Both the position numbers and the translations under genes were made by a program. A DNA stretch of 64,000 nt. Origin: Azolla caroliniana. Lineage: Eukaryota; Plantae; Polypodiophyta. The stretch is taken from the NCBI GenBank assembly GCA_043228905.1, contig JBHGNT010000022.1:8246001-8310000 (forward strand), given 5' to 3'. Below, in pieces: positions 1,945 through 61,728 of the stretch (its first letter is position 1; every line of letters starts with the position of its first letter). The notes beneath the pieces were generated by a model. That model ran no database searches. It saw nothing but the letters and a program-made list of their open reading frames with translations, and was not told the origin of the DNA.

Positions 1945-2405
1945 TATCAGGAATAGTACTAAACAGAGATAGGATTAGTACTAAACAGAGAGAGAATTAG
2001 TACTAGAGAAGGGAAGTACTATTAGAACTAAGGGGACGGGACTACGTAAGACTCCCGAGAGAGGAAGAGAGAAGAGGAGAGAGAGAGAGAGATAGCGAGG
2101 ACGAGAGATGATGATAACAGATTATATATTATAAGAAGAGTAAGTACAAAAAGGGCTATGAGGCTAAAGACTGGCGTTGAACCAATTTGGTTCAACATAA
2201 TGCCTAGTGCCCTCTTTTATAGTGTTCTCAAGAGTAATCCTCAAGCTTCTAGAATGTTCCAGAGAAATCTGGAATATACATTAATTTCCTATAATAAAAT
2301 GTAAATGAAAATAATATCTTACGTATTACAATAGATGAAATAATGGTCAAGAGCTCGACCCATATAACCTAAGGTCATGGGTTCAAGTCTTGCCATATCA
2401 TGACA
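1945..2405 (-). repeat. 5' LTR of chromovirus copy 1
   Basis: On the minus strand starts TGTCATGATATGGCAAG and ends TATTCCTGATA; matches the LTRs at 19301 and 27443. Confidence 0.88.
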
Positions 2406-6766: not shown

Positions 6767-6961
6767 TTGTTTCTCAGCTACTAGGTATGCCGCAAGGTGT
6801 GCCGGTAGTTCTTGATTCGGATTGACAAGTAATGTTTCTATGTCTCCCTCCGGTTCTTGATCTTGTTTTGAGGTCTGCGTGGAATTATTCTTTCTATATT
6901 TTCATCTCTTACGTGTGGTCGCGGGGAAACCTTGATCTTGGTAGTTTAAATTGTGCGCTAC

Positions 6962-9045: not shown

Positions 9046-9067
9046 GTTTTCCAGTCAAGCTTTTATA

Positions 9068-9236: not shown

Positions 9237-9337
9237 CGAACGTTGTGTGGGAAATTCAAAGTTTTTGGCGCCAACGGTCGTTTCGTGACCCCTGGGATGA
9301 TCCTAAGCCGCGAGACTCGCAGTGGTTACGCTTGCCC

Positions 9338-12145: not shown

Positions 12146-12186
<41 letters not shown>

Positions 12187-12730
12187 CACATAACATATAC
12201 AATCATACACACATGCCATACATAAAATATATACAATAAACGAAATCAATACAATACAATACAATATGTACATACATACACACATACCTATATACACTTA
12301 CATACATACACATACATACAATACAATATGTACACACACACGTGTGTGTGTCTGTGTAGACGATACATACACACACACAAACATAACACACATCACACGT
12401 GTTATACATACAATAAATGCAATTAAATACAATACAATATAATATGTACATACATACACACATACCTATATACACATGCAATTCAATCCATACAATACCT
12501 ATATACACATACACATACACACACACACACAAACAAACAAACAAACATAACACACAACAAACATGCATACCACATACAAACATACATACGCACACACAAA
12601 CAAAACAAACAACAGACTTGCATACCACATACAAACATATATGATGTATGGAACATACATACACACAAATCACACATGAATACCACATTCACAATGCACA
12701 CATACACACATATATATGATGTATGCTTAT
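9951..12730. repeat. Low-complexity (TATG)n/(CA)n/(TA)n microsatellite-rich region
   Basis: Direct inspection; ORFs here are H/T/Y/I-rich artefacts. Confidence 0.9.
10904..11681 (+). mobile_element. Solo LTR, copia family A-related, with 54-bp CCGG-rich tandem repeats
   Basis: TGTTGGG..CCCGTCA; TSD GTTTA/ATTTA; close homolog at 47928-48677. Confidence 0.9.
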
Positions 12731-13165
12731 ATGAAAAGTGATGGGTGGGTCATTCTATTTGTAGATAATGGATAAATAATCTATTATTGAAGTGTTTGAG
12801 CATGAGAGGGATGATGAAGATAAACCTTTGGGCATTGTAAGTGTGTGAGGAACTCTTACATATGCAAAGATCCGAGTGGAAATAATTGAGGATGGTATAT
12901 TTTAATATTTTGAATGGGAAACAAGAAGAGAAAAAATAAGGTTATGGCTTCATATGAGTCTATCCATGAAACTAAACATAATAGTTAATTTGTTAGTAAT
13001 TTCATTATTGATATGCATTTTGGATTGTTCCACGTGTGCTTTTTGAGATATATATATAAAGTTCAAGATTGTTTTATTGTAAATTACATTGTTTTTTTAT
13101 CACTCTATATTCTTCATATGTCTCAATAAAATAAAATAAAAACTTATATGTAGCTTATATATGTT

Positions 13166-15820
13166 TTTTTTTTCCAAAAAAAACTACTTCCGTTAGTTAA
13201 GCAATGTACAAAGGATAATTTACAACTCATATCTTATAAGACATCTTGCATGTCAAAGGAAAACAATATGTGTAGATGAAACAACAAAAAAAACAACTCC
13301 AAAGCACCACATCATTCGATGTGTATAGCATTACTCGAACACATATTCTCCACATGAGCCTCATACTAGCAAAATTCAGCATAGATGTCCTCCATTCGCT
13401 CCTCATGGCAGCACCCATCTAGATGTTAGGTACACTTGGAGGGAACAACCACTGTGGTGGTTGATAATTCCACTTCACTTTACCATCCATTATCTGTAGC
13501 ATCGACGAACCGCTCCATTTCAGCAAGAAACGAGCTCTCGCTTTTTCACTTGCGTCAGATGGCCCTTGAAGACTTTCAAACTCACCTCGCAACATAGAAA
13601 TAAGATTGAACCAGATCATCATTAGATTCTCAACCGGTGGGGTTCATTTACCTGCAAAGGTCTCCTTGCACCTAGATACCCACACTTGCCAGACTGTAAG
13701 GCCAACCACTAATACCCATATGTCCACGCAGCGTTCCTATAAGAAGAATAAAGCTCCTTGCGCTGGTTGCACAGATCCTTGCATCACCTTTAAAGAATGA
13801 CTGTTTCCATTCCACCCTTGAAACCACGAGGCCGATTCAATGGCCAACCAAGTGATTGTTGCGCTCGATACATGAACCTCAACACCGAACCGAGCCAAGA
13901 TTCTTAAGCTCCTCAACCAAATTTCTTGCACTCGAGGGTAGCACCACAAACAATGAGCGATGTCCTCCAAGCTCACACTACAGGCCTTGCAACCACTCAT
14001 GCCGCCTTTATTCCCAAGCCACTCTCCCGTTGGAACAGCTTGATGGGTGATTAACCAGAAAAACACTTTGATCTGCTCGAGAAGGGATGAGTTCCATATG
14101 CTGCTCCTTGTTCTATCCACGAAGGCTGAATCGATAGCTGCATGGGACCACTTGTTGGCACACTTCTCACGATACGAACCTAACTTTCTCCCCAACCGCG
14201 TCGAGTATTTGAAGAAACCTAATGATTTATCTTGTTCTCCCTTCCACGTATATTCAACAAGATCCCATTCTACGCGCTCGAGAGGCTTGCCTTCAACCAC
14301 GTACAAGAGCCAATCCTCCTCAACCTCTTCGACTGGTGGATTCACCTTCCATTTCTTTCCGGCTCTTGCCATAATTCTAATCGGGTACCAGCCTACACTT
14401 CCATCTAATAATCCAATCTAGATGGTCTTCCCATTCTTTCCTAGACCCCTAACATTGATAATTTTTCCGGTATCATCACATTGTTCGGACCATTCACCCT
14501 CTTCCTCATTACCAATAGGAAGCGAGGAGACAACTGTATTGACTACGTCAAGCATCTTTCTACCATTTCTGACCTTTCCCAAGTCTTCATATAGTTGATC
14601 ACCATTATTGCCGGATAGCCGCATCCAATCAGCCACCGAGTGTATCCCTAGACAATACAATGTAGCCCACGGCATGTGCTTGCTTTGTCCAAGCATCATT
14701 CCTTCTGGCGATTGTACGATCTCGTTCCACAGTAGGGGTTGGCGCATCCATTCAGCACTAGTACTTGGACGATTCCGACTTAGATGCCCACAGAGCATAC
14801 TCCACGCCTACATCACTGACATACAAGTACAATCAGCCAACCGGTTAGATTTCCTCAACTTTAAGGCCATACAAAAAGGCCACGCTTTGTGTGACTTCCA
14901 ATGTCCACCCAGTCTTGAACTCCAGACAATGCTCCTATTATGCATCAATGTTTTCCATAACTCATTACCAGGTAGCAAGCTCCTTACCAATACCTTACAT
15001 AACAATGCTTGACTCTGCAATCCAGGGTCAATCAATCCTAAACCCCCCTTACTCTTGGGAAGAACCAACGTAGACCATGATACTTTGGCTGTCGCATTGT
15101 CTTTCCTCATCCCAGCCCAAAGGAATCCCCTAATACACGTTTTAACATTATGAATAGCTTGCTTGTCAAACATCCACACTGAAACTGCATGCCATAACAT
15201 ACACAAGAGCACATGGTTAGCTACTATGATCCTGCCAGCCAATGATAAGTTCATCCCTGACCAGTTGCGAATTTTGTCACAGATTTTGCTTTGAATTTGT
15301 TGCAACTGAATTCCTTTGTCGATGTCTACCCCAATCCACGTGCCCAGATACCTAGTGGTGTCCCCGTTTGCAATCCATTTGAATTTAGCATTTGGCTTCC
15401 AAACAGGCTCGGACTCCAAGCTGATCCAAAAACCCTTGGACTTCTTCCAATTGATGGACGCTCCCGATGCCTTGCAAAAGAGCTCAATAGCACTCTGTGC
15501 CCTCTCAAGATTCGCTTCATTTCCTTGGAGGTATAGCATCGTATCGTCCGCGAACTCCGAGTCCAGCAGGGACTTCCTTGAATTAGGGATCGAAAGACCA
15601 TGAAGATTTGCCCCTTGACTATTAAAAAGGGCAAACATTGCTTTAGTAATAAAAAGGAAAAGAAAGGGGGCAAGAGGACAACCCTGCCTGATGGATCGAG
15701 TTAGAAAGATTCGAGCTCCTTTCCTCCCTGCAATCAACACCTTACTCGAGCCATTCCTATATAAGGCTTGGGCAGCACATCTCCACTCCAAAGGTAGCTC
15801 AATGACCTTCATTATATAAG
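13166..15820 (-). mobile_element. 5'-truncated L1-type LINE (RT C-terminal half, zf-RVT, poly-A tail)
   Basis: IRQGCPLAPFLF, FADD, KSKGGLGL, CKAC..HCLWC; T-run at 13164-13173; 13-bp TSD GCTTATATATGTT at 13153-13165 and 15821-15833. Confidence 0.93.
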
Positions 15821-16148
15821 GCTTATATATGTTATACCTCTAGTGTTTTTGGGTAATGTTTCCTAATTATGTGTGCATTACTTTGTACTTTACACATTGT
15901 GTTTTCAATCTATGTGGCACTTGATGAAGCATTTCTAGGAATTGCATATGAAGTTCATAATTTTGCGACTCATTAATTGTAAAGGCAGTTATTGATCACT
16001 TCTAGGATTGGAAACTATGTATGCATATATATTTTATATGTAAGGGTATTTAAAATGGGTGGTTATCAAAAAATATATTGGTATTAAGGGGTATTTTTAT
16101 TAATCTTTTTTCTACAAAAGGGTCACTAAAATAGTAAAAACCATACGT

Positions 16149-16906
16149 TGTCGTAGTGTAATTCGCACACTACGTGAAAATCACATTTTTGTCCCTCTGG
16201 ATGGAACCGATGAGAACCGGATGAAGGATGGAATCGGCAAGTAGGAACCGATAAGGAGACCTGGTAAGAACCGGATCAAGCAGAACCTGCAAGAGCCGGA
16301 TAAAGAAGGCCGGTGAGAGTCTCTCACAAGATGAAGAGACAAATTTGTAAATAGAAGAAAAGATTGTTACATGCATAGGGCAAGATTCGAACCCTGTACC
16401 TCCATGTGAACGATTTTTAAGCCTTACCACTATATTAGCATATTATGAATTGTAAAGTTATACTAAACTTTATCCCATGTAAATATTCTAGATATGCATG
16501 GTACAAAAAATTATTCATGCATACACACTCGAGTTAAAAGAAAAGTTGGGATAGGAAGCTAATCATGCACATGCAGTGTGCATGAAAACTAAAGTTAGGA
16601 AAAGCATGATGCTTGCATGTGATAAACTTAGACTCTTCCAACACTATATAAGGAAGAGAGAAAGATGTATAGGTGTTGTTGATTTGTATAAGGTTGGAAT
16701 AAGATAAAACTATTCGTGGGATTCATGATTTTGCCATCTATTTCTCTCTTACATTCTAAGTATCAATTAATACACTATACTCGTGGGATTCATGAGTTTC
16801 ATATCTTCCTTCAAATATATCTCTTTCTTGCAATACTTTCCCCTAGTCCAAAACCCAGCGGTTCCCACCCAACTCACGTAACGATCTGACGCCGAAAGGC
16901 ACGACA
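16149..16906 (+). mobile_element. Solo LTR (TGTCGT..ACGACA family), 4-bp TSD ACGT
   Basis: Termini TGTCGTAG/CACGACA; homologous to 61018-61728. Confidence 0.88.
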
Positions 16907-16929
16907 ACGTATAAGGGGTTTATAAATGA

Positions 16930-17461
16930 TGTCATGAATGCACGTGATACAACCATCTTATATATAGTGGAGTCCCCGGGATAAATTAACTTACCACTAA
17001 AGCCACTACTGAGTGCTTTAGAATTTGTATATTTTCTTTTCATATTCAGTAATTTGTAGGAAGCAAACATATAGAAACCGTGGGCACAAAACCATGGTTT
17101 TAGCCCATGGTTTGAGCTCGTGGTTTTAGCCCATGGTTTTAGCCCGTGGGTTTAGCCCGTGGGTTTAGCCCATGGAGAGACCTATAAAAGCCTATAGTTG
17201 GGCTTGTGTAAGGGGGGAAGTGATGTAAGTAAAAAAGAAACTTTTAATCAAAGATTTGAGTTATCCTAATGGTGATGTATCTTGTCTCGAAAAACTAAAG
17301 CCAAGGGTTCAATCTCTATCTCCATCTCTCTCTCTCTCTCTCAATCCATCTATCTATCTTCAATACTTTCTCGCTTACGCTGCTAAAAACATCGAATCCT
17401 TCCGGTCTAGGACCCCAGTGATCCCGCTTAGTTTCGCGAACACGCGAGGATTTCCTCGACA
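16930..17461 (+). mobile_element. LTR of a related subfamily (TGTCATG..CCTCGACA); flanks do not match, so probably recombinant
   Basis: From about 16985 to its end it is near-identical to the solo LTR at 58733-59325; contains TTAGCCCRTGG repeats. Confidence 0.75.
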
Positions 17462-19612
17462 CCGGAACGATTCGGACCGGAAAGGGTCGAATCAGAAGGG
17501 AACGTCGGCGATCGCAACAAGTGAAGAAGAACTTATGCTCATTATTGAGGAGAATGAGTTAAACCTTGTCGGCGATGAGACAACGTGGGTTGTCAATTCC
17601 GGAGCATCGTTCCATTTGACACCGGACCGAAAATGCTTCTCATCCTACATAGCCAGAGATCATGGTTGTGTCCGGATGGGGAATGAAGGTACATGCCAAA
17701 TTGTCGGCATAGGAGATGTGTTGTTGACGACATCAACCGGATACAAATTGTTGTTGAAAGAAGTTTGACACGTTCTGGAGGTTTGGTTGAACCTGATATC
17801 AGCCGGTTGGCTAGATGATGAAGGCTACACGGGTAACATCCAGAACAGAGTCATGAAGTTCAGCAAGGGAAGCTTTATCGTGGCTCAAGTCTGGAAGATC
17901 AACACGTTGTACATGATGCATGCATGGATATGCTTGGAAGAAGTGAACGTAGCATCCAACACTGCCGGTGAGCTATGACACAAGAGACTATGTCACATGA
18001 GCCAAAAGGGGATGAGAAGACTTGCCAAAGACAACCTCATTCCGAAGATGAAAGACGTGCATCTTGAGAAATGCACCAATTGCTTAGCCGGCAAGCAAAA
18101 CCGAACATCCTTCCAGTCAAAAACACTGATGAGATGGAATGCACCACTGGAGCTACTACATACCAATGTGTGCACGTGGACATGAAGTCACATGCGGGAT
18201 TGCAGTACTTTGTGACGTTTAAGGATGACCACAGTCAGAAGTTGTGGGTCTCACCATTGAAGACGAAGGATCAGGTGTTGTCTGTCTTCAAGGAACTCCA
18301 CGCAAGAGTGGAAAGAGAAACTGGTTGGAAGCTGAAAGCGGTTCGAGTAGGTAATGGAGGAGAGTATTGGGGGCAGTTCGAAGAGTATTGTCGATCGAAG
18401 GGAATCTAGCTCGAATTCACCGTGCCGAAAACGCCAGAACTAAACGGGTTGGCCGAATGGATGAACCAGACCGTGATGGAGAGAGTCTAGAGCATGTTGG
18501 CACATGCAACACTGCCCAAGACATTTTGGGCTGAGGCACTGATGATGGCAACGTACGTGATTAACAGGTCACCCCGGCACCCTTGGAAGGAGACACACCA
18601 TAGAGAGCATGGACCGTTAAAGACGTGTCTTATCGGCATCTAAAGGTGTTCGGGTGTCTGACATATATGCATGTTGCAAACGACAAGAGAGCAAAACTAG
18701 ATCCAAAAGCCAGGCCATGCATATTCCTCGAATACGGTGATGATGAGTTCGGTTACCGGGTGTGGGATCTAGTCGACAAGAAGGTGTTCCGGAGTCAGGA
18801 CATAGTCTTCATGGAGGACAAGACCATTTCCAACTTGGAGTCGGAGAAGAAAGTGATGAACTCCGGATCATCCAATGAAAACCGGCTTGAGGACACAAGG
18901 ACTTACCCGGTTGAAAACCGGATGTTGGCCGGCAACTTGATGACACTCGACGAACTGGCCGGATATGGACAAGAAACCGAACCGACCGAAAATGATGATG
19001 AAGAAGAAGACACCGGAACTGGACAAGATGCTGAATCGGATTCGGATTTGGATTCGGATTCGGAACAAATGGAGGAACTGGTGGTCAGAAACCAAGGACG
19101 GAGATATCCAGAACAAGTGGGCTGAAACCAAGAGATGCCAAAAATCCACCAAGGTACAAAGCCCGAATCGTGGTGAAGGGGTTCTAGCAGAAGAAAGGAG
19201 TGGATTTCGACGAGATCTTCGTCCCGGTAGTAAAAATGACATCCATCCGGACCGCAAGCATGGACCTCGAGGTAGAGCAACTGGATGTCAAGACGGCATT
19301 TGTCATAATATGGCAAGACTCGAACCCATGAACTTATGTTACATGGCTCGAGCTCTTCACCATTACACTATCTATTGTAATACATAATATATTATTTTTA
19401 TTCAAGTTTTACTATAGAAAATTAATGTATATTCCAGATTTCTCTGGAACATTCTAGAAACTTCAGGACTACTCCCGAGAACACTATAAAAGGAGACACA
19501 AGGCATTATTTCAAACCAAATCGGTTCAACGCCAGTCTTAAGCCTCCTAGCCTTCCTTGTATATTCTTCTCACATAATATATCGTTGTCATTATCATTTT
19601 CTCTACCTCGAT

Positions 19613-20177
19613 TCCTCTGTAAATCAAGCCTTTTTGCAACGCCAATGTATCATGACATGGGACAAATGTGGAGGCTCGCGCTTCACACATTATACTACAC
19701 ATGTTGCACCTAACTACAAAACCATATTCTTTGCGAAACAGGGAAATTGTACACATTGATACATGCTAGAGCCCATACCGTTATTTTCCATTCGAACCAT
19801 TGCTTCCATGCGACTTAGCTCACATGCATTGCGATGTGAAACAGGGCGTTGGGGCACAAGTGATGAGAGTGGTCGGCAATGCACACTTTGCCCTAAACAA
19901 GTTCGCGAGTCTGAGTATCACACTTTGATACAATGCTCTACCTTTGATCATATTCGACCATGCTTTCCACATCTCTTCGACCGAGCCCAATCTTTGCATG
20001 AATTCCTCTCACAACCACAATCTGTACTCTCGATTGCAACATTCATTGGTAAAGTTCTTGAACATCTAGAGTCACTACTCACTTTGACATGTATCACGTG
20101 AAATGTAATATTTCTGGCCTCATAGGTCATATTTGACCTCCGAAGACGATAATATAATCTATCTATCTATCTATCTA
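19613..20177 (+). mobile_element. 3' fragment of a non-L1 LINE (RTEX/CR1-like) with (ATCT)n tail, inserted in the chromovirus 5' LTR
   Basis: RLSSHALRCETGRW..CTLC..ESEYHTLIQC C-terminal motif; absent from the 3' LTR. Confidence 0.75.
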
Positions 20178-22131
20178 TCTCTCCTTCTCTCGAGTGTTCT
20201 ACACCCTCTATTCCTCTTAGTACTAATATTCCTCTCTTAGTACTAATTTCTTCTCTATCTCGGTACTATTCCTGACAGTTTGAACTGATTTTTCTCCTTC
20301 CGTCTTCTCCTTTCCTCCTCTTCATTTTATCTTCTTACATAACAGTTTGATCGGTCTTCCTACAAAATTTGATGGGACCTGATCACAATTTAGAGGTTTC
20401 TGAATCAGGTATGTTCAATGATTCAAATGCATCCTTCTCGATATCCCACTGACGCATCACGAGTGGGACTAGTAGGCACTCTACTTAGTGGCTCAACATT
20501 GGCATGGTTCGCTCCGTTGTTAGAAAAGGAATCTCCATTACTAAACAATTTTGAAGAATTTATAAGTTAGTTTAAAACCTATTTTGGAGATACTGACAAC
20601 ATAAGGACAACAATCAACAAAATCCGACGACTACGCCAAGGTGATTGTCCAGCTTCCGCATACGCTATAGATTTCCGCCTCCTCGCATCCGATATCCCTT
20701 GGGATGATCAAGCATTGATGGAGGAATTTCGTTATGGTTTACGCAACGATGTCAAGGATGTACTCTTGACCTTCCTCGAGGGAGTCATATAATGCGTCTC
20801 CAGTGAATACTCCGACTCTGATGGAGATTGACAATACACGTCATTGCGGACCATTATCGGAAGAAGAAAAGCAACGACGTCGAGCAAATCGACTATGTCT
20901 TTATTGCAATGGACCAGGGCATATTGCAGTAAATTGTCCCCATAGGCCAAGAAGACAGGTAAACCAAATAGTTGCTAGTTCTAATTGTACTAAACCCGAG
21001 TCTATTTCAGTAGGAATATCTGATAGTCCTAATAGTACTAATAGCCCAAATCTAGCGAACAAATTTGATGTACTTAGTCAGTTAGAAGAAGAGTTAAATG
21101 AATAAGTCTAGCTAAAATAGGAATTGTTTGGTTGGACAACCCTAGATCTGTGCAGCCCATTAGTGGTTCCATTCCCTCTAAGCAAGTTAGCAATGTGTTC
21201 GTAGCCCAAGTAACAGTTAGTACTAAAAGTACCCCTCCAGTACTTGTGACTCTTAGCACTTCTAGATATCTCTAATTCTTGCTTCATGGATAGGAATTTT
21301 GCCCAAGCTCATCAAATATCTCTCAGAAAACTCCCGCGTCCAGCCTCTGTAGTAGCCATTGATGGTCATCCCATTGCTTCCGAAAATATCATAGAAGAGT
21401 CAGAGCCCGTTAATATTGTCCTAGATAATCTAGCGTGTGTAGTATCATTTAATATAACTAGTATCCCAGAACATCCCATTGTTTTAGGATTACCATGGTT
21501 CGAATTACATAACCCAGACATAGATTGGAGAACAAGAGAAATCTGGTATCGATAAGCTAGAGGATCTACTCATAAGATTGCAACCATTTCACTACATCAA
21601 TTGCGGGAAGAAAGACACAAGGAAGAAATGTTTCTCTTCGCAATATCAGTAAAACCCTCTGACACCACTAAAGAGGAGTCCACTGTTCAACTTCCAAAGA
21701 AGTATCATCATTATGCCGATGTGTTCGATAAAGTACAAGCTAATACGCTTCCTCACCATCGACCGTATGATTGCCCCATCGATTTACAACCGGGAAAAGA
21801 GCCACCGTGGGGACCGATCTACAATTTGTCAACAACCGAGCTAGAAGTCCTTTGAGCCTATATGGAGGAGAATTTGGAAAATGGTTTCATTTGGCATTCG
21901 AAATCTCCAGCCGACGCACCCATTTTCTGTGTCAAGAAAAAGGATGGATCACTTCGTCTCGTAGTAGATTATCGTTGCTTGAATAAGGTCACCATCAGAA
22001 ATAGGTATGCACTTCCTCTTATCTCAAGTCCTTTAGAATGGATCAATGGTGCAAGGTTCTTCACGAAGATCGACTTACGGGGGGGAGCATATAACCTCGT
22101 ACGGATCCGAGAGATGAATGGAAAATAACGT

Positions 22132-25090
22132 TGTCGTGGAGAAAACTGGCCATAGGAGAAAACGGGGGAAAAGACGCAGGAACCGACCCTTACGCGTGGC
22201 CAGACTATTTATTAAGGTGTACATAACCAGATCTGATTTAGCTGATGTAAATATACTAGGTAGTACACATTAATTGTCTAGGGAATCCAAGTGTATCTCT
22301 GTCCGATGGGACAGAGGATAAATGTATGTAACCGAGGATAAAAGGGAGGGGAGAAGACTGATACAAGGACCATGCATTTTTGAGAGGGAAGTGTTGTCGG
22401 ATTGGGAACCGAGCTCTCTCCTCCACTATCGTTGTTCCTTTTGCAGGGATTTGGGTTAGGTTGGTTGCCTCTATTGCATGAAAACCCGTGTGCTTTCGGT
22501 AGAGGCTCCACTGCGTATTTCAGTGCATGTGTTCATGTCACCAGCTTGTCGGTTGTAACATTGCAAGCTCGGTAATCTATACTGTTATTGGAATTGATTC
22601 GTTTGTTTCTGTCTCTCTGTGTTTCTGCGAGTCTCTCTCCCTCTTCTCTCTCACGCTCCTCGGTTCAGGGTCCCTGCGGTCCCGCCGTACTTCATACGCG
22701 AGTGCGTAACAACACGACATCAAATTGGTGAACCCGACGTGAAGAGGCAGCGAGGACGAAGATGGAAGACAAAGACTTCGACTTTGCGGAGATGATGGCG
22801 AAGATTGTGATGGATGCCCGACGGAAGAAGGCGAGGCAAGATGCGACTCAACAAGTCGTCGAGAGGGTGGTCGATCGAGTTGGCCGATTCAACGAGGACA
22901 ATGTCCCGAGGTTCTTGAAAGCGTACAATGTCGAGATGACGAAGAGGGGCGTGGACGAAGCGATGCGGCTAGAAAATTTTCGTCGAGTGGTAGCCGTATT
23001 AGTGCACAAAGAGGTCAAGGAGCTTCAAGAAGCTCACGAGTCATGGGATTCCTTTGAGGGAGCTCTATTGGAGGCATATGGATACGCGAAACTGGAGTGG
23101 GTATGCCGGCAACCCGATGGGGAGCGGTCGACAACAATGTGGTCTATGAGTGGCAGAGAAGAGAGGGCGGTGAGTGGCTATGCACTACCGCAAGAAGAGA
23201 GCTCGATGTACGATCAACCGGAGGAGTACGACCTAGAGGCGTTGGTATGGGAAGCGTGCGAGAGCATGAAGGCGAAGTTCGAAGCCAAAGAAGGGCTTAT
23301 TATGGAGTCGGGCCAGAGACGATCGGAGGATGCGGAGGAAGAAGCCTCCCTACGCGTGGACGATGGGGTCGATGCATAGGCCGGAAGAGCGTGCAACAAT
23401 GACGACGAGGGAGAGGGTGCGGAGCAAGAGACCCTCTCATCCTGTGGAAAAGGGACGGCCATGGATGAGGCCGGTGACTACGAAGCAGGGAGCGCCACTT
23501 CGAGAGTGGGCGGAGGATTCGGGACACGGTGGCCCGAAACATCAAGCGGGGAGGAGATGAGCGGTGGTGCCAGGACCTTACCCACACCGATTCTAGAGAC
23601 TCCAGTGTCCCGCCCGAGAGTCGGTGTGAGACCTAGAGTGACTAACGGTGGCGGCGGCAAGGCGGGCAACCAAGACGACGGCAAGGAGATCGAGGAAGAG
23701 GAGGCGGCAAGCGTAATCGAGGCTTCTACGATCGAAGACGGTGTAGCCACGGACAACGACGTCCGGATGGAGGTGGCTACGGTTCTAGAGACTCCGGCAT
23801 CCGGCCCGAGAGCCGGTATGAGACCTAGAGTGACGGACGGTGGCGGCGGCAAGGCGGGTGACCGAAACGAAGAGGAGGATGCAAACCGAAGAACGAGCGT
23901 GCATTCGGGGAACGATAACAACACATGGGAAGAGCCTACGAAAGGCGAGCTTGGAGCGGAGAGAGTTGGCATGCGGAGGTGTTCGGGGCGCGGACACGAT
24001 CGAACCGACGGAGGGGCATACGCGGCACACAAGGCGTGGAATCCGGCGTACAACCGATGTGACCGGGGGCCCAATTGAAGGGCATACATGGCGGACAAAG
24101 TCGGAGTGGCCGGATCGAGGAAGAGAAGGCGCGAACATCGAATATGGTGGATCGGATGGATTCGGTGGTTCGGGGACAAGCAGTGGACCTGGTGGATCAG
24201 ATGGAGCCGACAGATCGGGATTGGAAGCAGCCGGCAAGGCGGTCGGGTGCCGGGACGGCGGAGGACCCTAAACCCTAAACCGGTTTATCATCATCGCCAA
24301 AATCTCTCACCTTTTCCCTCTTGGCACGTACCAGTGGATGTGCGGTTTGGTGGGGGCAGATGTCGTGAAGATTTCCGGCTACGGTGAGAAAACCGGGAGG
24401 GACAAATAAAATGGAGATGTGCAACATTGCACATGCACTTGTAAATTTGTGTAATAAGAATAAGTAAACAAAATGTAGTGGGAAGGGTAATAATCTAAGG
24501 TGCTAAAGGTGCACCACGAAGTTCATAGAGGAATAATGTGATGTGCACTTTGTAGAGTAGAATGAGTAGTGAGCTCGTGTAAAAAAAGTAAGAGAGAGGA
24601 GAGGTAAAAAGTAGAGGGGAGACAAGCTAAGAATTTACAGAGATAGAATCATTATATAAGAGAGAGTTAATGGGCTAGTGGATAGTCACATTGACTTCTA
24701 GCTAGAGGTGCATGGTTTAAATCTAGTCTTATAGTGTAGCGTGATTTAAGGAATTTTATTCCTTTTTTGCATTAAAGACAAAATTGGCGACCCCCCCTTC
24801 CTTTTTTCCTATAAAAGGAGGTCGAGGGGGGTTCATTTGGGGTTTGTCTATTTTGGGTGAGAGAGGTATACCACTTAGGTCGAGGGGTTCTATTCGGTTT
24901 TAGGGTTTCTTCTAGGGTTTTCTTCTTGCGTTTCTTTTAGGGTTTCTATGCTTCTTTGCTTATTTATCCGGTTAGGGTTTTCTTGTAGTCGTTTTGGGTG
25001 CGGCCTATGCGGTCTTGGTTGTAATTTTGTTTGTGAACTCTTAATATAGAATGTTGATGTTTCTTGTTGTGTGGGTGTATCTTGCCTCCA
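22132..25090 (+). mobile_element. Non-autonomous gag-only LTR element inserted in the chromovirus RT; 5' LTR 22132-22719, tRNA-Trp PBS, truncated divergent 3' LTR from 24361
   Basis: TGTCGTG..CACGACA; PBS TGGTGAACCCGACGTGA at 22726-22742; purine tract TGGTGGGGGCAGA before TGTCGTG at 24361; no pol motifs. Confidence 0.8.
22762..23379 (+). CDS. Truncated gag-like capsid ORF (205 aa)
   Basis: ATG just after the PBS; GRFNEDNVPRFLKAYNVEM..SWDSFEGALLEAY resembles a retrotransposon capsid N-terminal domain. Confidence 0.6.
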   Translation: MEDKDFDFAEMMAKIVMDARRKKARQDATQQVVERVVDRVGRFNEDNVPRFLKAYNVEMTKRGVDEAMRLENFRRVVAVLVHKEVKELQEAHESWDSFEGALLEAYGYAKLEWVCRQPDGERSTTMWSMSGREERAVSGYALPQEESSMYDQPEEYDLEALVWEACESMKAKFEAKEGLIMESGQRRSEDAEEEASLRVDDGVDA

Positions 25091-27214
25091 TCTATTCTCA
25101 TGATTCTCATGTACTGTTAGTACTAAAACGATTTCGAGAACATGGTCTTTATGCAAAGTTGCAAAAATGTAGTTCGGGTGCAACCAGGTGGAATTTCTGG
25201 CCTATGTCATCTCCTCGGAAGGTATCTCCATGGATCCGCGTTCGTTGCGAGATGTGCAATGTTTTTTGGGCTTTGCCAATTTCTACCGCAAGTTTATATA
25301 GGATTGCTCAAAGCTTGTTTGGCCTCTCACACAACTTACTAAGAAGGGACAATCGTTCATTTGGTCTGAAGAAGCGGACATGGCTTTTGAGAATCTTAAG
25401 GAGGAATTTACATCAGCTCCTATTCTAGCTCACGTTGATCCGGAAAAACCATTCATCATGGAAGCGGACGTGTCCGATTTCACATTTGGTAGCATTCTGT
25501 TACAACAAGGTAATGATGAAAAGCTACATCCTGTGGCTTTCCACTCACGCAAGTGTAACACCGTCGAAATAAACTATGAAATTCATGATAAGGAGCTATT
25601 AGCAATAGTGGACTCTTTTACGCAATGGAGGAATTTTCTAGAGGGATCCTCTCATCAAGTCACCGTATTCAGTGATCACAAAAACCTTGCCTACTTTCAA
25701 AGTGCTCGTGTGTTAAATCGACGTCAAGCTCGGTGGGCCCAATTCCTCACGTGTTTCGACTTCAAAATTACATATCGTCCGAGGAAGCGCCAAGGGAAGG
25801 CATATGCATTATCATGACGTTCGTATCTAGCACTGCGTCCCGGCAAACCATCTTTCAATAACCAAAAGCAAGTAATCTTGGAACGGCACAACTGCAAGCA
25901 ACACAGGTCTTCGGCATGCCCTTGGATTCCCACGTTATCGATACCATACGTGAGGACTTGAAGACAGATGCTTTCGCCCAAGCCATTCTAGCACAAATTG
26001 ATCCCTCTCGAACATCTTGTTCACGGCTACAACAACCAGGTACGGACTATCGACAATTCGAATGTCATGATGGATTACTATTCTTTAAGAAACTCTTGTA
26101 TGTTCCTAATTGTTCTTGCCGCCTTCGAGTAGTCCAAAACTGTCATGACACATATACAGTTGGGCATTTTGGTAGTACTAAGACATTAGATTTAGTACAA
26201 CAATCATTCTGGTGGCCCCATATGTGACAATTTGTCGAAGATTTTGTCCGGACTTGTGATACATGTTGCAGAGCAAAAATGCTAAGGCATCATCCATATG
26301 GTTTATTAGAACCATTACCAATTCTAAGCAAGCTGTGGCAATCCATTGCTCTAGATTTCATCACAGATTTTCCAGTCTCTAAGGGATTCAATGCGATTTT
26401 AACAGTAGTAGATCAATATACGAAGATGGCTCATTTCTTGCCATGTACTAAGGAAATCTCTCTAGTGAAGAAACAACCGAAATTGTCATGCATGAAGTAT
26501 GTCGGCATCATGGCCTTCCTAATAATATCATCAGCGATCGTGGACCCCAGTTCGTCTCGAAATTCTAGAAGCACCTTTTTAAAATGCTCAAGGTCACTTG
26601 TAACCTCTCCTCCGGCTACCACCCGCAAACCGATGGCGAAGCAGAACGAACAAATCAAACGCTAGAGTAGTATCTTTGGTGCTTTCTAAGCTATCATCAG
26701 GATGACTAGGCGAATATTCTCCACTTCGCCGAATTTTCCTATTATAACTCTGTCCACTCATCAACTAAAGTTACGCGATTTTATGCTTATACGGGTTGTC
26801 ACCCCCGGTGGTGTGTATTTGAAACCCCATACTTACCCACAAATCCTTACGCAGAGGATCATTTGGAGCGGTTACGCAATATACAAGCAAATTTATCTAC
26901 TCATCTACAACAAGCTCAACAAACACACAAGGTTTACGTGGATCGTCATTGGCTTCCATACAATTTTAACATTGGACATCGGGTATGGCTACTACGACGA
27001 CACATCACGACTACTTGCCCATGCGAGAAGTTGGATTATCGGCGATTAGGTCCTTTCTGTATTATCGGAAAGATTAATGATGTCGCTTTTTGTCGCGATC
27101 TACCCCCGCAACTTCGCATACATTCGGTGTTTCATAGTTCTCTCCTCGAACCCTATCAAGACCACCATCTCAAGACGTATTCCACAACCTCCATCCCCGA
27201 TCGAACTTGAAGAT

Positions 27215-27400
27215 GGACCTGAGTACAAGGTTGCCGCCATCCTCGATTCCAAGAATGTTCGCAACAAGCTCTACTATTTAGTCGATTGGCTAGGATATAG
27301 TCCCAGCGAGCGTACTTGGGAACCAATAGAAAATGTGACCAATGCTCGTGCTCTTCCTGAAGACTTCCATTGTCAATATCCAGATAAACCGGGTCCTCAA
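27215..27400 (+). other. Chromodomain at the integrase C-terminus
   Basis: EYKVAAILDS..YYLVDWLGYSPSERTWEP. Confidence 0.92.
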
Positions 27401-28618
27401 TCCAAAACGACTCGTGACACTCGTCATTTAAAAGGGGGATAGTGTCATGATATGGCAAGACTCGAACCCATGACCTTATGTTACATGGGTCAATTTCTTG
27501 ACCATTACACTATCAATTGTAATATATTATATATTATTTTTATTTAAGTTTTACTATAGAAAATTAAGGTATATTCCAGATTTCTCTGGAACATTCTAGA
27601 AGCTTCAAGACTACTCCTGGGTACACTATAAAAGGAGGCACAAGGCATTATTTCGAACCAAATCGGTTCAACGCCAGTCTTAAGCCTCCTAACCTTCCTT
27701 GTATATTCTTCTCACATAATATATCGTTGTCATCATCATTTTCTCTCCCTCGATCTCTCACTCACTCACTCTCTCTCTCTCCCGAGTGTTCTACACCCTC
27801 TATTCCTCTTAGTACTAATATTCCTCTCTTAGTACTAATTTCTTCTCTATCTCAGTACTATTCCTGACAACATTCCTACATGATGACCTCGAAGAAGAGA
27901 TCTACATGCATCAACCGGAAGGATTTGAGACCAAGTCAAGATACAAATGTTGAAGAAAGCCCTAAACCAGACTTTCTCAATGAAAGATTTGGGTCCGGCA
28001 AAACAGATATTAGGGATGCACATAATCCGGAACCAGTCAGAGAAGCTGTTGTGGTTGTTATAGGAGAAGTACGAGACAAAGGTGCTTCAAAGGTTCAACA
28101 TGTCGGAGGCAAAACCGATCCGATCGACACTTCCGGCAAACTGCAAGTTGTCCGGAAAGCAGAGCCCGAAGACAAAGGCAGAGAAGTCGGATATGACGAA
28201 GATACCATTTGCCTCTGCCATCGGAAGCTTAATGTATGCAATGGTGTGCACCCGACCGAATATTGCATATGTTGTCAGTGTAATCAGCCGGCTCATGAGC
28301 AACCCACGAAGAGAGCACTAGAACGCAGTCAAGTGGATACTCCGGTATCTGAAAGGCACCTCGAGTATGTGCCTCCGGTTTGGCTCCGGTAAACCCCAAC
28401 TTGACGGGTTCACGGATTCGGATATGTCGGCTGATGTGGATACCAACCGGTCTCCATCAAGATATGTCATGACTTATGCAGGCAGAGCTGTATCATGGCA
28501 GTCAAGGCTGCAGAAGTTCGTTGCACTGTCGACAACGGAAGCGGAGTACATGGTAGCTATGGAAACCGGCAAGGCGATACTCTGGATGAAGGACTTCATC
28601 AGGGAGCTAGGGATCCGG

Positions 28619-31405: not shown

Positions 31406-33135
31406 TAGATCCCCCACTAGTTAGTCAATGTAAAATTCAACAAGTCCTACTTTATGTTTGCAATCAAATGGCGTATATGAAATTGGGGACCTAATAGATG
31501 GAAATGGAAACTAAATCATTGTTGTCTTGTGATCAAACTAAAACTTTTAGACCTTCAATGCTCCTTTGACAAAATGAATGATTGACCAATACAAGAACAC
31601 ATGAGAGTCAAGATCACCTACAAAAACACCTATGCATACTATGATTGAAAATTGAAGTACTTTAACATTGATTCTACACTAATCCACAAAAAGGAAAGTG
31701 AGAGCAAGTGTCCAATTTGTCTACTTTTCAATTTCGAAGTTTACAATGCATAAATACCACAATCATATGAACAATTACATAAAATGATGAAATGCCTTCC
31801 AATTCTCATAGAAGGATATTGGAATGCTCATATTGATAAGAATTCAAAACTCATTTAAGTTCCTATTATTTGAAATAGAACATGCACGTTTATGCATGCA
31901 TTTGTTGAAAATGTTTCCATTGACTTTATAATATGACGAAGCCTGAAACTGGCGCATTCAAAGAGCAACAAATTGTATACGCATGATAAATTGAGTGTAG
32001 ATTTCAACTTGATTTTTTATGTGTCATTTTACTAAAAAACAAGAAAAGATTTGAGATGATAAGACTCCATGTTTCTTTCTACATAGCATGTAAAGCATTT
32101 GTATTGAACTTTATGCATGTCGAACTTCAAATAATGGTGACATAATTTGCCATTTCATTGAAAAAATATCTATGTGATAGAATCATGGTTTATTATTGAA
32201 AACCTTTTGAAAAGTAGAATTATTAAGAGCATGGAAGGAAATTTCACTTGAATTTGTTAGAAATATGTGAGGCCTAGAGAGAAGTATGGGATGGTGATTG
32301 GATATGAAATTATTCCATGTAATTAGAAGTGTATCAATCAATATTGTGTGTTGTGTGACATTCAAGGAGTGGGTGCATGTTGACAGAAATAAATGGATTT
32401 ATTTTTAACTTGAGAGACAGTGAGAGATGAGAGCGACTTAGTTTGTAGCTTTTATATAAGGCAAAAATTATATGCCTACTAAAAAGGGACAATAATACAA
32501 CACTTAAAACATTATGATTAGCAATTGGCCTTGCGTGGAAAGAGTTCTCTTTCCACGGAATATATGTCATCCACATGCAATACAAATGGGTGTTTATAGT
32601 AATCGATGATCCAAAGGGCTCCGTGTGCAACACGCACTGATGTTTCTTGTACCAGCTAAACTAGAAGGAAAAGAAAATGTGTGTAGGGGGAAGAAAATGT
32701 CAAAGATGAATGAGTCACCTCGAAGCTCGACGTACACACATGCGTAGATCTAGATGTACACGTACACGTATACACACACACACACACACACACACATGAT
32801 AAGTTGACCCACCTAATTTGTTGTGCAAGTTGTGCACATTCAAAGCAAAACAAACACATGCATGTAAAAACCCAATAAATAAAGTGTCGAGACAAATGGA
32901 CACACATATATATATATATACGTATGTATGTATAAAGAGAAAGAGAGAGAGAGAGAGAGAGACTTTTGTATGACTTAAGTAAGAAGCTCTTTTGCCTTGG
33001 AGGAAGAAGAGGAGGAGCCTTTGATCAACAACCAACCCCCCCCTCCACACCCCCAACCCTAACCCCAAAATTGGGTGTGAATAACCCCTTGCTGCTTTCT
33101 CCCTACCTTCTTCATCTTGCTGCTGACTTGGCACC

Positions 33136-33660
33136 CTGGCAGCCCTCGTGGCACTCCTCGTGCCCGCCACTTGGCTGGCATTGACGGCATGGCTCCCCGT
33201 AGCTTGCTTAGGAGCGGCCGCCATCGTCTCGTGCGCCCTACAAACAGAATGCCCAGAAGAAGAGTTCGACGAGGACGAGGACGAGGTATACGGCCGTGGC
33301 GGCCCGCTCACATGGCACAACCCATCCAGCCCTCGACCCCTCGATCCTGAGCTCGTTCGCGCCATCCCTTGCGTGCCTTACCACGAGCACCGTAACCGTG
33401 CTTGCGGGATGGATCAACGCACGTGCGTAGTGTGTCTCGATGCATTCGATTCCCATGCCAATGTCCGAGAATTGCCGCTTTGCCGACATGCCTTCCATGC
33501 CGAGTGTATCGACTCATGGTTCCTAGGTCATTCCACATGCCCGATTTGTCGCCACGACGTGGCTTCATATTCCCCGTCCATAACACATTCCAAGGACATT
33601 TTGGCTACATCCGATGTGAACAGATCTTCTTCGGTTTGCCGGCTAGGAGTAGCAGCTTAG
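33136..33660 (+). CDS. ATL-like RING-H2 E3 ubiquitin ligase (host gene); start codon uncertain (CTG)
   Basis: N-terminal hydrophobic segment, acidic patch, GLD-like PLDPELVRAIP, RING-H2 CVVC..LPLCRHAFHAECIDSWFLGHSTCPICR; TATA at about 32931 followed by a GA repeat. Confidence 0.85.
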   Translation: MAALVALLVPATWLALTAWLPVACLGAAAIVSCALQTECPEEEFDEDEDEVYGRGGPLTWHNPSSPRPLDPELVRAIPCVPYHEHRNRACGMDQRTCVVCLDAFDSHANVRELPLCRHAFHAECIDSWFLGHSTCPICRHDVASYSPSITHSKDILATSDVNRSSSVCRLGVAA

Positions 33661-47927: not shown

Positions 47928-48677
47928 TGTTGGGAGACAGGTCCCTCCGGATGAGAAGGGAGAAGAACAGTGCTCATGAACAATCTCGGCCGAGGCCGAT
48001 AGGCCGAGGTCGAAACCGGATGAGGAGTACCCGGCTACGGAGAGCCGCATGGTGTAGACCCGGTATGAACCGGATGAGGAGTACCCGGCTACGGAGAGCC
48101 GGATGGTGCAGACCCGGTATGAACCGGATGAGGAGTACCCGGCTACGGAGAGCCGGATGGTGCAGCCCCGGTATGAACTGAATGAGGAGTACCCGGCTAC
48201 GGAGAGCTGGATGGTGCAGACCCGGTATGAACCGGATGAAGAGACATATTCGTAAATATGTTTCTGAGAGTCCATCGAGGCTATATTTGTAAATAGCCGA
48301 AAAGTCATATTAGTATAAATATGACTTAGGGCAAACTTTTAGTTGTTGGTTGCTCTTATTATTTCTTGTCTACGTGAGATCAGAGCGCGCAACAGTGTGC
48401 AGAGAGAGAGAGAGAGAAAGAGGTCGTTGCCTCTGTTGTAACTGCCGCGTGTGGCGAAGATCTGTGAGCACTAGGTTGTTGCCTCAGTGAACTCACTGTT
48501 GTACATACTAATCTAGTGATAGTTTGCAGCCTGTGGGCTGCCGTGGTTTTTTCCTAGTTTGGGGTTTTCCACGTTAAACATCCTGCGTGCTCTTCTCTCC
48601 CATTGTGTCGTTCTTTATTTCCCGTTTTCTGTGTATGATCCTAAGCTCGGTTGTGGCCGAGCGTTGAGTTCCCGTCA
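47928..48677 (+). mobile_element. Solo LTR (same family as 10904-11681)
   Basis: Perfect TSD TGGTT; TG..CA ends; 54-bp repeats. Confidence 0.95.
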
Positions 48678-58732: not shown

Positions 58733-59325
58733 TATCATGAAGATTTTCGGCAACGGTGTGAAAATCGTGTGGAACAAACAAAACCGAGAAAGTGTAATGA
58801 GCACTCAAACATTTGTAAATAAAATAAGTCTAAAGCCTAGTAACCTTTGAGTTCATACAAAGGGGTGCAAGCAAGGCTTGAACCTTGCACCTCCATGATA
58901 AGAGACGAATTAACTTACCACTAAAGCCACTACTAAGTGATTTAGATTTTGTATATTTTCTTTTCATATTCAATATTTCGTAGGAAGCAAACATATAAAA
59001 ACCATGGGCACAAAACCATGGTTTTAGCCCGTGGGTTTAGCCCATGGTTTTTACATCGAGAGACCTATAAAAGCCTATAGTGGCGCTTGTGTAAAGAGAG
59101 AAGTGATGTAAGTAAAACTTTTAATCAAAGATCTGAGTTATCCTAATGGTGATGTATCTTGTCTCGTAAAACTAAAGTCAAGGGTTCAATCTCTCTCTCT
59201 CTCTCTTCATCCATCTATCTATCTGCAATACTTTCTCGCTTACGTTGTTAAAACATCTAATCCTTCCAGTCCAGGACCCCAGTGGTCCCACTTCATTTCG
59301 CGAACACGTGAGGATTTCCTTGACA
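58733..59325 (+). mobile_element. Solo LTR of the 4-bp-TSD family
   Basis: TATCATG..CCTTGACA (decayed TGTCGTG..TCGACA); flanks CCAC/CTGC both derive from CCGC, which restores the host integrase. Confidence 0.85.
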
Positions 59326-61017: not shown

Positions 61018-61728
61018 TGTCGTAGGGTATTTCATACACTACATGAAAAACTTATAAAGTAACGTTTTAGTAAATATGAAGAGATAGAAGAAAATCTCAA
61101 AATAAATAATACATGCATAGGGCAAGATTCGAACCTTGCACCTCCATGTTAATAATGTAATGTCTTACCATTACACTAGCATTTCATTCCTGTTAAAAAG
61201 TAGATGTCCCGCATAAAAAAAGGTAAGTTCACGTAGGATAAACTTTAGTTAAAAGAAAAAGCTACGCATGCACATCTAGCGTGCATGAACGCTATAGTTG
61301 ATAAAAAAACGCACAAGTTAGAAAAAGCATAATCACTTTAGATAAAGTATATAGTCTATCTATAGGAAAAGCATGGAGTCTATAGTTAGAGAAAAAAAAA
61401 CATGGATTCCTAAGACTCCCTCATCACTACATAAGGATGGGGAGCACAATGTAATAGGGGTGTGAAAAATATTTGGGAAATTGGATATATTTCCTAAAAC
61501 ACCAATTAATATAATCGTGGGATTCACAAAGTTTTATATAATCTATCTCTTTCAATCTAAATTCATATTCTTACATAAATATTGATTAATGTAATCCTTG
61601 TGGGATTCACAAGCTTCTAATAATCTATACATAATTAAAATCGCCTCAAATTCTTCCTCTTCCTAGTCCATAACCCCAGTGGTTCCCACCCGACTCACGC
61701 AAATGATCCGGAGCTGAAAGGCACGACA
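61018..61728 (+). mobile_element. Solo LTR (TGTCGT..ACGACA family), 4-bp TSD CCGT
   Basis: Removing the LTR and one CCGT restores the gag sequence seen at about 50695-50725. Confidence 0.92.

What the first reader, a model, noticed from the sequence alone, without database searches (positions are those of the whole stretch)
61120..61180. tRNA-like Pol III A-box/B-box cassette inside the LTRs of the 4-bp-TSD family
Seen: the minus strand reads GCTAGTGTAATGGTAAG..29 nt..GGTTCGAATCTTGCC, an A-box and B-box at tRNA spacing. The same module is at 16379-16440 (TAATATAGTGGT..GGTTCGAATC) and 58870-58930 (TGGCTTTAGTGG..GGTTCAAGCC), each antisense and upstream of the LTR TATA box. A degenerate sense copy is at about 24672-24727 and an A-box half at about 16990-17006. 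The boxes are kept while most of the spacer and the surrounding LTR have diverged. Established: A/B boxes bind TFIIIC, tRNA genes can act as chromatin barriers, and Cassandra elements carry 5S-type Pol III promoters in their LTRs. Inference: these LTRs carry a selected tRNA-mimic promoter or insulator that may shield the LTR from silencing or make an antisense RNA.
Basis: partly seen in the sequence, partly recalled or inferred. Interest (0 to 1): 0.8.

Follow-up and report, generated by a model that had tools for sequence, protein, structure and literature searches.

The report
tRNA promoter boxes shared by retrotransposons
Two unrelated lineages of protein-coding jumping genes in a non-flowering plant carry the same backwards tRNA-gene promoter motif in their end repeats, conserved much better than the DNA around it, and it likely recruits the host's tRNA-gene transcription factor to help keep the element's own promoter open.

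Summary
An A-box/B-box pair at tRNA spacing lies antisense in U3, upstream of the TATA box, in solo LTRs with 4-bp NCGN TSDs and a Trp-type PBS (Phygy-type gypsy; an intact RT-RH-INT copy carries it). The two lineages' modules are homologous beyond the boxes (0 of 1000 box-kept shuffles), so it was swapped or co-captured. In 7 aligned LTRs the A-box core and B-box differ from the column majority at 8% and 6% of cells, against 23-25% for spacer and flanks. But 15 nt on each side of the B-box are equally conserved, and the B-box CpG decays like other CpGs. It is no tRNA (no cloverleaf covariation), no TSD-flanked SINE and no copy of the primer tRNA. Most likely it is a DNA-level TFIIIC site serving the Pol II promoter; binding and transcription are untested. 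Closest known: Helenus/Cassandra (sense, non-autonomous TRIMs). This scan noted similar tRNA-like LTR cassettes before in fungal and other genomes.

The parts
61018..61728 (+). Solo LTR, Phygy-type family F1 (TGTCGT...ACGACA), 4-bp TSD CCGT, inserted in a copia gag
   Evidence: orientation from PBS and PPT in L016, L006, L009
61111..61178 (-). tRNA-type module: A-box 61168-61178, variable spacer 61151-61165, conserved 61136-61150, B-box 61126-61135, conserved tail 61111-61125
61427..61434 (+). TATA-like box of the LTR, about 250 nt from the A-box
   Evidence: conserved in the 7-copy alignment and depth peak
16149..16906 (+). Solo LTR, family F1 (66% identical to 61018-61728), TSD ACGT
16384..16437 (-). 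A/B module in this LTR
58733..59325 (+). Solo LTR, second Phygy-type family F2; flanks CCAC/CTGC, read as a CpG-decayed CCGC TSD (inference)
58875..58929 (-). A/B module in the F2 LTR
   Evidence: homology to the F1 module, 0 of 1000 box-kept shuffles
16981..17461 (+). 5'-truncated F2 LTR cut inside the module spacer; A-box half at about 16990-17006; followed by CCGG
   Evidence: missing 5' part not found in 8000-16984
24361..25050 (+). 3' LTR (after a purine tract) of a third Phygy-like family; 5' end similar to F2; 3' end uncertain, apparently lost by deletion
24671..24723 (+). Degenerate SENSE A/B module upstream of the TATA at 24809
   Evidence: similarity to the F1 module beyond the boxes 2 of 1000
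19301..20277 (+). 5' LTR of a Tcn1-type chromovirus (split by an insertion at 19613-20177), followed by a self-priming-type PBS
19317..19370 (-).
27443..27869 (+). 3' LTR of the same chromovirus, after the chromodomain and PPT; 5-bp TSD GCATT/ACATT
27459..27512 (-).
2336..2389 (+). A/B module in a third Tcn1-type LTR (about 1971-2405, minus strand); A-box with 2 mismatches
59139..59192 (+). Possible second, sense, decayed module downstream of the TATA in F2 (partner at 17262-17315)
   Evidence: nhmmer E 0.014 and 0.44; weak
22726..22743 (+). PBS after a Phygy-type LTR that lacks the module; same PBS as in F1 loci L016 and L002; used to read the primer's 3' end

Best explanation
The module is a tRNA-type A-box/B-box cassette in U3 of coding-type Phygy and Tcn1 gypsy LTRs, shared between the two lineages and conserved better than its flanks, which likely binds host TFIIIC as DNA and would keep the region upstream of the LTR's Pol II TATA box open. 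Shown: position, orientation, spacing, homology across lineages, excess conservation, lack of a conserved cloverleaf. Inferred: tRNA or SINE-head ancestry; transfer between lineages by recombination or capture of an LTR end; purifying selection in the active master elements; TFIIIC binding with little or no productive Pol III transcription (like 'extra TFIIIC' sites); benefit to Pol II transcription of the element.
For: A-to-B start distance is 43-45 nt in all 6 window copies that passed the box scan at tRNA-like spacing in U3 and 43 nt in L006, L009, L010, L016, while the flanks are indel-rich (gapped identity 0.24 and 0.47). Differences from the column majority in 7 LTRs: A-box constrained positions 5/63, A-box free positions 4/14, B-box 4/70, spacer 24/105, flanks 82/325 and 80/350, TATA region 28/217; Fisher p = 0.003 (A) and 0.0001 (B), and 0.01 and 0.004 with 4 divergent copies. 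Contigs of 4 runs with 4 organism labels pile on the B-box block as high as on TATA and U5 in F1 (X1: 141,488-196,878 against 6,062-17,396 in flanks) and in Tcn1 (668,918 against 3,545). The three listed Tcn1 A-box variants fall at box positions 9, 11 and 12 and keep the consensus (40 of 60 rows shown). Cloverleaf D and T stems pair in 52.5% of cells, no better than shuffles (469/500); RNAalifold -1.03 kcal/mol with 0 compensatory pairs, which points to recognition as DNA rather than as a fold. The module occurs in both orientations (24671 sense), as a DNA-bound factor would allow. The 50 nt upstream of the A-box, where TFIIIB would sit, are not conserved (80/350), although an upstream TATA-like element matters in plants (PMC11346459, passages).
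Against: No binding, chromatin or RNA data. The 15 nt on each side of the B-box are as conserved as the box (10/105 and 4/105), which A/B recognition alone does not explain. The B-box CpG is not protected from decay (2 of 7 against 23 of 98), and TFIIIC is reported to be excluded by CpG methylation (PMC11346459). Depth over the Tcn1 A-box is low (11,291-33,646 in X1), so that part varies among subfamilies. 3 of the 5 changes at constrained A-box positions are transitions, the commonest mutation anyway. The copies are related, so the p-values are optimistic. One Phygy-type LTR (22132-22719) and the copia LTRs lack the module, and L004 has lost it, so it is dispensable for at least some copies. 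Rfam tRNA scores only 13.4 bits (E 2.3) and nothing for three other copies.
Confidence: 0.45

Rival explanations
1. A working Pol III gene: the module makes a short antisense RNA of about 100 nt running toward the LTR 5' end, which tunes the element's own promoter by interference or small-RNA production.
For: Both boxes and their spacing are kept. Runs of four or more T follow the B-box on that strand in most F1 copies. Some copies fold better than shuffles (z -2 to -3.6). Opposite-strand Pol II and Pol III transcription is anti-correlated in Arabidopsis (PMC11346459, passage).
Against: U3 is A-rich throughout, so the T-runs are uninformative. The upstream region is not conserved. The folds differ between copies and do not covary. 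In Tcn1 5' LTRs the transcript would run out into host DNA 16 nt after the B-box.
Confidence: 0.2
2. A captured tRNA/SINE relic whose conservation comes from overlapping Pol II enhancer sites (the F1 tail holds CATGCA, an RY-like motif, recalled) and, in Tcn1, from the adjacent integrase attachment end; the A/B look is ancestry only.
For: The conserved block is wider than the B-box. CATGCA recurs in other conserved U3 blocks. In Tcn1 the tail is the LTR terminus. The CpG decays normally.
Against: A-box core positions are conserved while the free positions and the adjacent spacer are not. Spacing is kept across families whose LTRs otherwise do not align. F2 keeps both boxes but has lost the CATGCA tail.
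Confidence: 0.22
3. An RNA-level tRNA-pairing element in the 3' U3 of the genomic RNA, like the Ty3 bipartite PBS, which anneals to the D and T arms of the primer tRNA and aids initiation or strand transfer.
For: Antisense orientation in U3 is what Ty3 shows (PMC5371799, passages). The boxes are by nature complementary to the D and T loops of any tRNA.
Against: The primer's 3' end read from the PBS gives positions 61-72 as CACGTCGGGTTC, whereas the module reads CTTGCCCTATGC. The Phygy-type PBS is already full length. Tcn1 is self-priming (83% in PMC6317226 supplement; 11 of 12 complementarity in the window) yet carries the module. One family has it in sense. I could not compare the D arm with the host's tRNA-Trp (no reference held).
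Confidence: 0.08
4. A landing pad or targeting decoy: the boxes attract Pol III-targeting retroelements, or tether the element to tRNA-gene compartments.
For: Lead from e1-10420520 (another genome, unchecked). One F2 LTR is cut inside the module (16981).
Against: No insertion sits at a fixed distance upstream of any A-box in the window copies or in L006, L009, L010, L016, L017. The one insertion in a Tcn1 LTR is about 240 nt away (19613).
Confidence: 0.05

Closest known systems
Helenus / TRIMp3 (Kojima 2024, PMC10886601; abstract, parts 1-3 of 6, discussion, searched passages and one supplement passage read)
   Same: tRNA-derived sequence in LTRs, conserved around boxes A and B, not a functional tRNA; proposed origin by SINE insertion into an LTR; one plant family known (Selaginella).
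   Different: Helenus are non-coding TRIMs of 311-1263 bp; the three LTRs I saw read A to B in sense, as the element's proposed promoter. Here the LTRs are 430-875 bp, belong to coding-type elements, keep a Pol II TATA, and carry the module mostly antisense in U3. The paper argues autonomous partners are unlikely to share a long LTR stretch with TRIMp3. It also says 'not a few LTRs' in Repbase hold tRNA-like sequence and analyses only the TRIMs, so autonomous cases may be known but undescribed.
Cassandra (as summarised in PMC10886601; primary paper not read)
   Same: Pol III internal promoter inside an LTR, in land plants.
   Different: 5S-derived (type 1) promoter, non-autonomous, transcribes the element itself.
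Phygy (non-chromovirus Ty3/gypsy; Neumann 2019, PMC6317226; passages, section 9 and supplement rows read)
   Same: 4-bp NCGN TSD (100%) and tRNA-Trp PBS (81%) match the F1 family; RT-RH-INT order.
   Different: No tRNA-like LTR module in the passages seen ('tRNA-like' occurs 0 times in that paper).
Tcn1 chromovirus (same paper)
   Same: 5-bp TSD, self-priming, chromodomain after the integrase.
   Different: LTR begins with the A/B module; not described in what I read.
Ty3 bipartite PBS (PMC5371799, passages read)
   Same: tRNA-complementary sequence in U3.
   Different: In Ty3 it complements the primer tRNA and completes a split PBS; here positions 61-72 do not match the primer and one carrier is self-priming.
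ETC (extra TFIIIC) sites (PMC11346459, passages read)
   Same: TFIIIC-type boxes without clear signs of a Pol III product; proposed chromatin role.
   Different: ETC sites are defined by occupancy data, which are missing here; these boxes are carried by mobile elements.

Membership tests
Helenus/TRIMp3 | tRNA-derived A and B boxes in the LTR | tested here: met
   tRNA ancestry itself is inferred (Rfam 13.4 bits)
Helenus/TRIMp3 | non-autonomous, no coding capacity, about 1.3 kb or less | tested here: not met
   L009: 916-aa open RT-RH-INT frame, then PPT and LTR with the module; L016: LTR, PBS, gag start; Tcn1 element 19301-27869 with RNase H and chromodomain remnants
Helenus/TRIMp3 | boxes in sense, able to transcribe the element | tested here: not met
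   antisense in F1, F2 and Tcn1; sense only at 24671 and in the weak R-region copies
Helenus/TRIMp3 | Pol III transcription | not testable with these tools
   only assembled contigs were served
Phygy | 4-bp NCGN TSD | tested here: met
   CCGT and ACGT exact on both sides; F2 flanks CCAC/CTGC and CCGG fit; one-sided ACGC, ACGT in L006, L009; reference
Phygy | tRNA-Trp PBS | tested here: met
   one PBS after the LTR in L016, L002 and at 22726; its assignment to Trp is recalled, not checked against a tRNA set; 81% Trp
Phygy | RT-RH-INT order without chromodomain or extra RNase H | tested here: met
   Pfam on L009
Phygy | RT phylogeny within the Phygy clade | not testable with these tools
   no REXdb reference held; named homologs are liverwort and fern proteins at about 49-69% identity
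Tcn1 chromovirus | 5-bp TSD, chromodomain, self-priming PBS | tested here: met
   GCATT/ACATT; PF00385 E 1e-12; 11 of 12 complementarity between R and PBS for 19301 (the script window for the 2405 copy was misplaced and gave no valid test); reference
Tcn1 chromovirus | RT phylogeny within Tcn1 | not tested
   no reference set
tRNA gene | cloverleaf with acceptor, D, anticodon and T stems | tested here: not met
   ARAGORN 0 in the window and in 16 of 16 metagenome loci; Rfam match covers model 8-63 only
SINE insertion | own TSD, 3' tail, clean presence/absence, free-standing copies | tested here: not met
   no flanking repeat or A-tail in alignments; L004 lacks ~350 bp, not the module alone; all 12 strong profile hits lie in LTRs; search space small (window plus 26 loci)
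Ty3-type bipartite PBS | U3 segment complementary to the primer tRNA | tested here: not met
   positions 61-72 differ from the PBS-derived primer end; D arm not testable

The most novel reading that the evidence does not exclude
Autonomous LTR retrotransposons of non-seed plants use a mobile, TFIIIC-binding tRNA-promoter cassette as a U3 regulatory module and have passed it between chromovirus and non-chromovirus lineages: a Pol III factor co-opted to license a Pol II retroelement promoter, and a possible source of TRIMp3 promoters inside autonomous elements.
Probability: 0.35. Interest if true: 0.75.

Novelty: new variant of a known kind. Interest (0 to 1): 0.5.

Why it matters
tRNA-type promoters in LTRs are described for small non-coding TRIMs, where they are thought to transcribe the element. 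Here the cassette sits in coding-type, abundant elements, mostly backwards and beside a retained Pol II TATA, so it needs another job. If TFIIIC binds, very many dispersed TFIIIC sites would be seeded by the dominant retrotransposons of this plant group, with effects on chromatin organisation, and a defined 70-bp element becomes available to test whether TFIIIC opens or insulates chromatin in plants. The sharing between two distant gypsy lineages is also direct evidence of LTR module exchange.

Tried and rejected
No whole genome is held for this window, so no genome-wide copy set. ARAGORN found nothing. Rfam on the whole window gave no tRNA match among 36 matches at E up to 10; on four single modules only one weak partial match, so the tRNA isotype could not be named. 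Viral contigs: 0 for the U5 motif, 1 unrelated hit for the module motif, 0 relatives of the Phygy-type polyprotein, 10 distant (40-45%) relatives of the Tcn1 RNase H with no module hit. Prokaryotic genomes: 13 hits, taken as chance; one lies in a bacterial tRNA-like stretch. No RNA holder listed; only contigs were laid, so nothing on expression. I first took the 17-nt array in L002 for an alternative U3; it belongs to a second, head-to-head LTR, so L002 was dropped from the presence count. Of 16 metagenome loci, 10 were left out of that count because they do not cover the module's position (L002, L003, L005, L007, L008, L011-L015). One search had the T stem out of register and was redone. Extension of Tcn1-Phygy homology past the A-box is weak and inconsistent (2-256 of 300 shuffles over 12 pairs), so capture of a whole Tcn1 LTR end is not established. 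The A/B-like hit at 34988 is not similar to the modules beyond the boxes and was rejected. Literature: 10 searches showed no paper on this module in Phygy or Tcn1; the library lacks most subscription papers, and Repbase entries were not seen.

Full report
Setting. The window is a nest of decayed plant retroelements: copia, gypsy and L1 domains plus one RING-finger frame. No whole genome is held. The element types and the named protein homologs (liverwort, fern) point to a non-seed land plant; I did not identify it further.

Observation. A scan with the recalled consensus boxes TRGYNNARYGG and GGTTCRANYC finds 4 perfect pairs in the window against 0 in each of 40 block-wise shuffles, and 5 against 0 at a spacer of 30-36 nt with one A-box mismatch. 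With looser limits 13 hits are seen against 2.5 expected. The hits are homologous, so this shows a real, tRNA-spaced motif with one or two origins, not many independent ones. It is not a tRNA: ARAGORN finds none, Rfam's tRNA model gives 13.4 bits over positions 8-63 only for 61122-61178 and nothing for three other copies.

The carriers. 61018-61728 and 16149-16906 are solo LTRs with exact TSDs CCGT and ACGT. 58733-59325 and 16981-17461 form a second family with a related U5. Neumann et al. 2019 (PMC6317226; passages, section 9, supplement rows) give Phygy a 4-bp NCGN TSD in 100% and a tRNA-Trp PBS in 81% of 186 elements. A metagenome scan with a U5 motif, chosen so as not to select for the module, returned 16 loci. 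L016 shows LTR, PBS and gag start; L006 and L009 show integrase end, PPT and LTR. This fixes the LTR as plus-oriented and the module as antisense in U3, about 250 nt upstream of the TATA. L009 has an open 916-aa RT-RH-INT frame without chromodomain; it is an assembly contig of high coverage and may be a collapse of many copies. Six of the 16 loci cover the module's position: five have it (L006, L009, L010, L016, L017), and L004 has a ~350-bp U3 deletion. The other ten are too short or 5'-truncated.

The same module forms the first ~75 bp of three LTRs of a different element (19301, 27443, 2405). This element has a chromodomain, a 5-bp TSD and an 11-of-12 match between R and PBS, the Tcn1 profile (5 bp, self-priming 83%). 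The Tcn1 and Phygy-type LTRs align essentially only over this module (56 of 71 bases at 61112-61185; 0 of 200 shuffles). With both boxes held fixed and the rest shuffled, 0 of 1000 trials reach the observed score for F1 against Tcn1 and for F1 against F2; F2 against Tcn1 is weaker (42 of 1000), and the sense copy at 24671 scores 2 of 1000 against F1 and 29 of 1000 against Tcn1. So the similarity is by descent and not only convergence on a consensus. Homology past the A-box is inconsistent, so the route and direction are open. A Phygy-type LTR at 22132-22719 and the copia LTRs have no module.

Conservation. In 7 F1 LTRs (62-86% pairwise identity), cells differing from the column majority are: constrained A-box positions 5/63, free A-box positions 4/14, spacer 24/105, the 15 nt before the B-box 10/105, B-box 4/70, the 15 nt after it 4/105, flanks 82/325 and 80/350, TATA region 28/217. 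Against spacer plus flanks, Fisher p is 0.003 for A and 0.0001 for B (0.01 and 0.004 with the 4 most divergent copies); relatedness makes these optimistic. Among all 11-nt windows of the LTR the B-box is only in the top 16% and the A-box in the top 34%, so they are two of several conserved blocks. Contigs from 4 of the 21 listed runs were laid. On F1 the depth peaks at 61104-61155 equal those at TATA and U5 (X1: 141,488-196,878 against 6,062-17,396 in the flanks; A-box bin 65,200); no variant among the 40 of 92 rows shown lies in either box. On Tcn1 the B-box block peaks likewise (668,918 against 3,545), but the A-box bins are low (11,291-33,646); the three A-box variants among 40 of 60 rows shown keep the consensus. 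This depth reflects sequence sharing among copies and the closeness of the laid copy to the majority; it is no copy number.

DNA or RNA. Cloverleaf D and T stems pair in 52.5% of cells across 11 modules, no better than shuffles (469 of 500), and the alignment fold is -1.03 kcal/mol with no compensatory pair. Single copies fold (z from +0.2 to -3.6) but into different shapes. The primer's 3' end, read from the PBS, does not match the module at positions 61-72, and a self-priming element needs no tRNA, which argues against a Ty3-like bipartite PBS (PMC5371799, passages). No TSD, tail or free copy marks it as a recent SINE insertion: all 12 strong profile hits in the window and 26 loci lie in LTRs, 11 of them being the profile's own training copies.

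Mechanism. I commit to a DNA-level TFIIIC site that serves the Pol II promoter (0.45). Shown: anatomy, sharing, conservation, no conserved fold. Inferred: binding and benefit. tRNA genes lie in nucleosome-poor DNA and TFIIIC also binds sites without Pol III (PMC11346459, passages). The region where TFIIIB would sit is not conserved here, which favours binding over transcription. Against a shield from methylation, the B-box CpG has decayed in 2 of 7 copies, as have 23 of 98 cells at all shared CpG columns; any benefit would act in active or young copies. The rivals are an enhancer-bearing relic (0.22), a true antisense Pol III gene (0.20), a tRNA-pairing element (0.08) and a landing pad (0.05).

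Comparison. Helenus (PMC10886601; abstract, parts 1-3 of 6, discussion, passages, one supplement passage) is the closest: tRNA-derived A/B boxes in LTRs. It is defined as non-autonomous, and the three LTRs seen read in sense; both features fail here, so this works partly like Helenus but is not a member. That paper notes that 'not a few' Repbase LTRs hold tRNA-like sequence, so autonomous carriers may already be on file. Ten literature searches listed no description for Phygy or Tcn1; PMC13570524 (passages) only cites Helenus. Earlier notes of this scan report tRNA-like LTR cassettes in other genomes (unchecked); none of the notes shown for this genome covers this module (8 of 45 and 8 of 17 notes were shown).

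Verdict. Real, selected-looking and shared across two gypsy lineages; a new variant of a known kind, function untested. Interest 0.5.

Noticed in passing
window 59139-59192 and 17262-17315 (+): A second, sense, decayed A/B-like module downstream of the TATA in both F2 LTRs, with the same 44-nt spacing; closer to the Tcn1 module (1 of 1000 box-kept shuffles; nhmmer E 0.014 and 0.44).
   Followed up: partly
L002 about 400-780 (minus strand): A Phygy-type LTR lying head to head with an F1 LTR carries about a dozen ~17-nt tandem units in its 3' part, some with B-box-like cores (GTTCGAGTC, GTTCAAGTC); may be chance or a second route to TFIIIC sites.
   Followed up: partly
window 22132-25100: Phygy-type element nested in the Tcn1 RT whose 5' LTR (22132-22719, no module) and 3' LTR (from 24361, sense module) do not resemble each other; chimeric or a nested deletion. 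Its GC-rich interior has no Pfam hit.
   Followed up: partly
window 24685-24705 (+): The sense module's middle reads TGACTTCTAG, which would place TCT at the anticodon (Arg-like); stems are decayed and I had no tRNA set to test it.
   Followed up: no
window 61111-61118 and 61255-61290: CATGCA motifs and a GCATGCAC...GTGCATG palindrome recur in conserved U3 blocks of F1; RY-like B3-factor sites are a recalled lead.
   Followed up: no
window 61500-61615; L003-L017: Two or three copies of a near-palindromic GTGGGATTCAC motif are conserved downstream of the TATA in F1 LTRs.
   Followed up: no
window 2401-3495 and 5507-6901 (-): A non-chromovirus gypsy element appears to carry two aspartic-protease domains, one after the integrase end.
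   Followed up: no
window 33127-33660 (+): RING-H2 zinc-finger frame, likely a host gene amid the retroelement nest.
   Followed up: no
L002 3018-6431 (-): Open 1137-aa frame unlike the retroelement proteins, possibly a DNA transposase; not scanned.
   Followed up: no
window 9052-9267; 10910-11313; 47948-48297: 18-nt and 54-nt tandem arrays in or near LTRs of other families.
   Followed up: no
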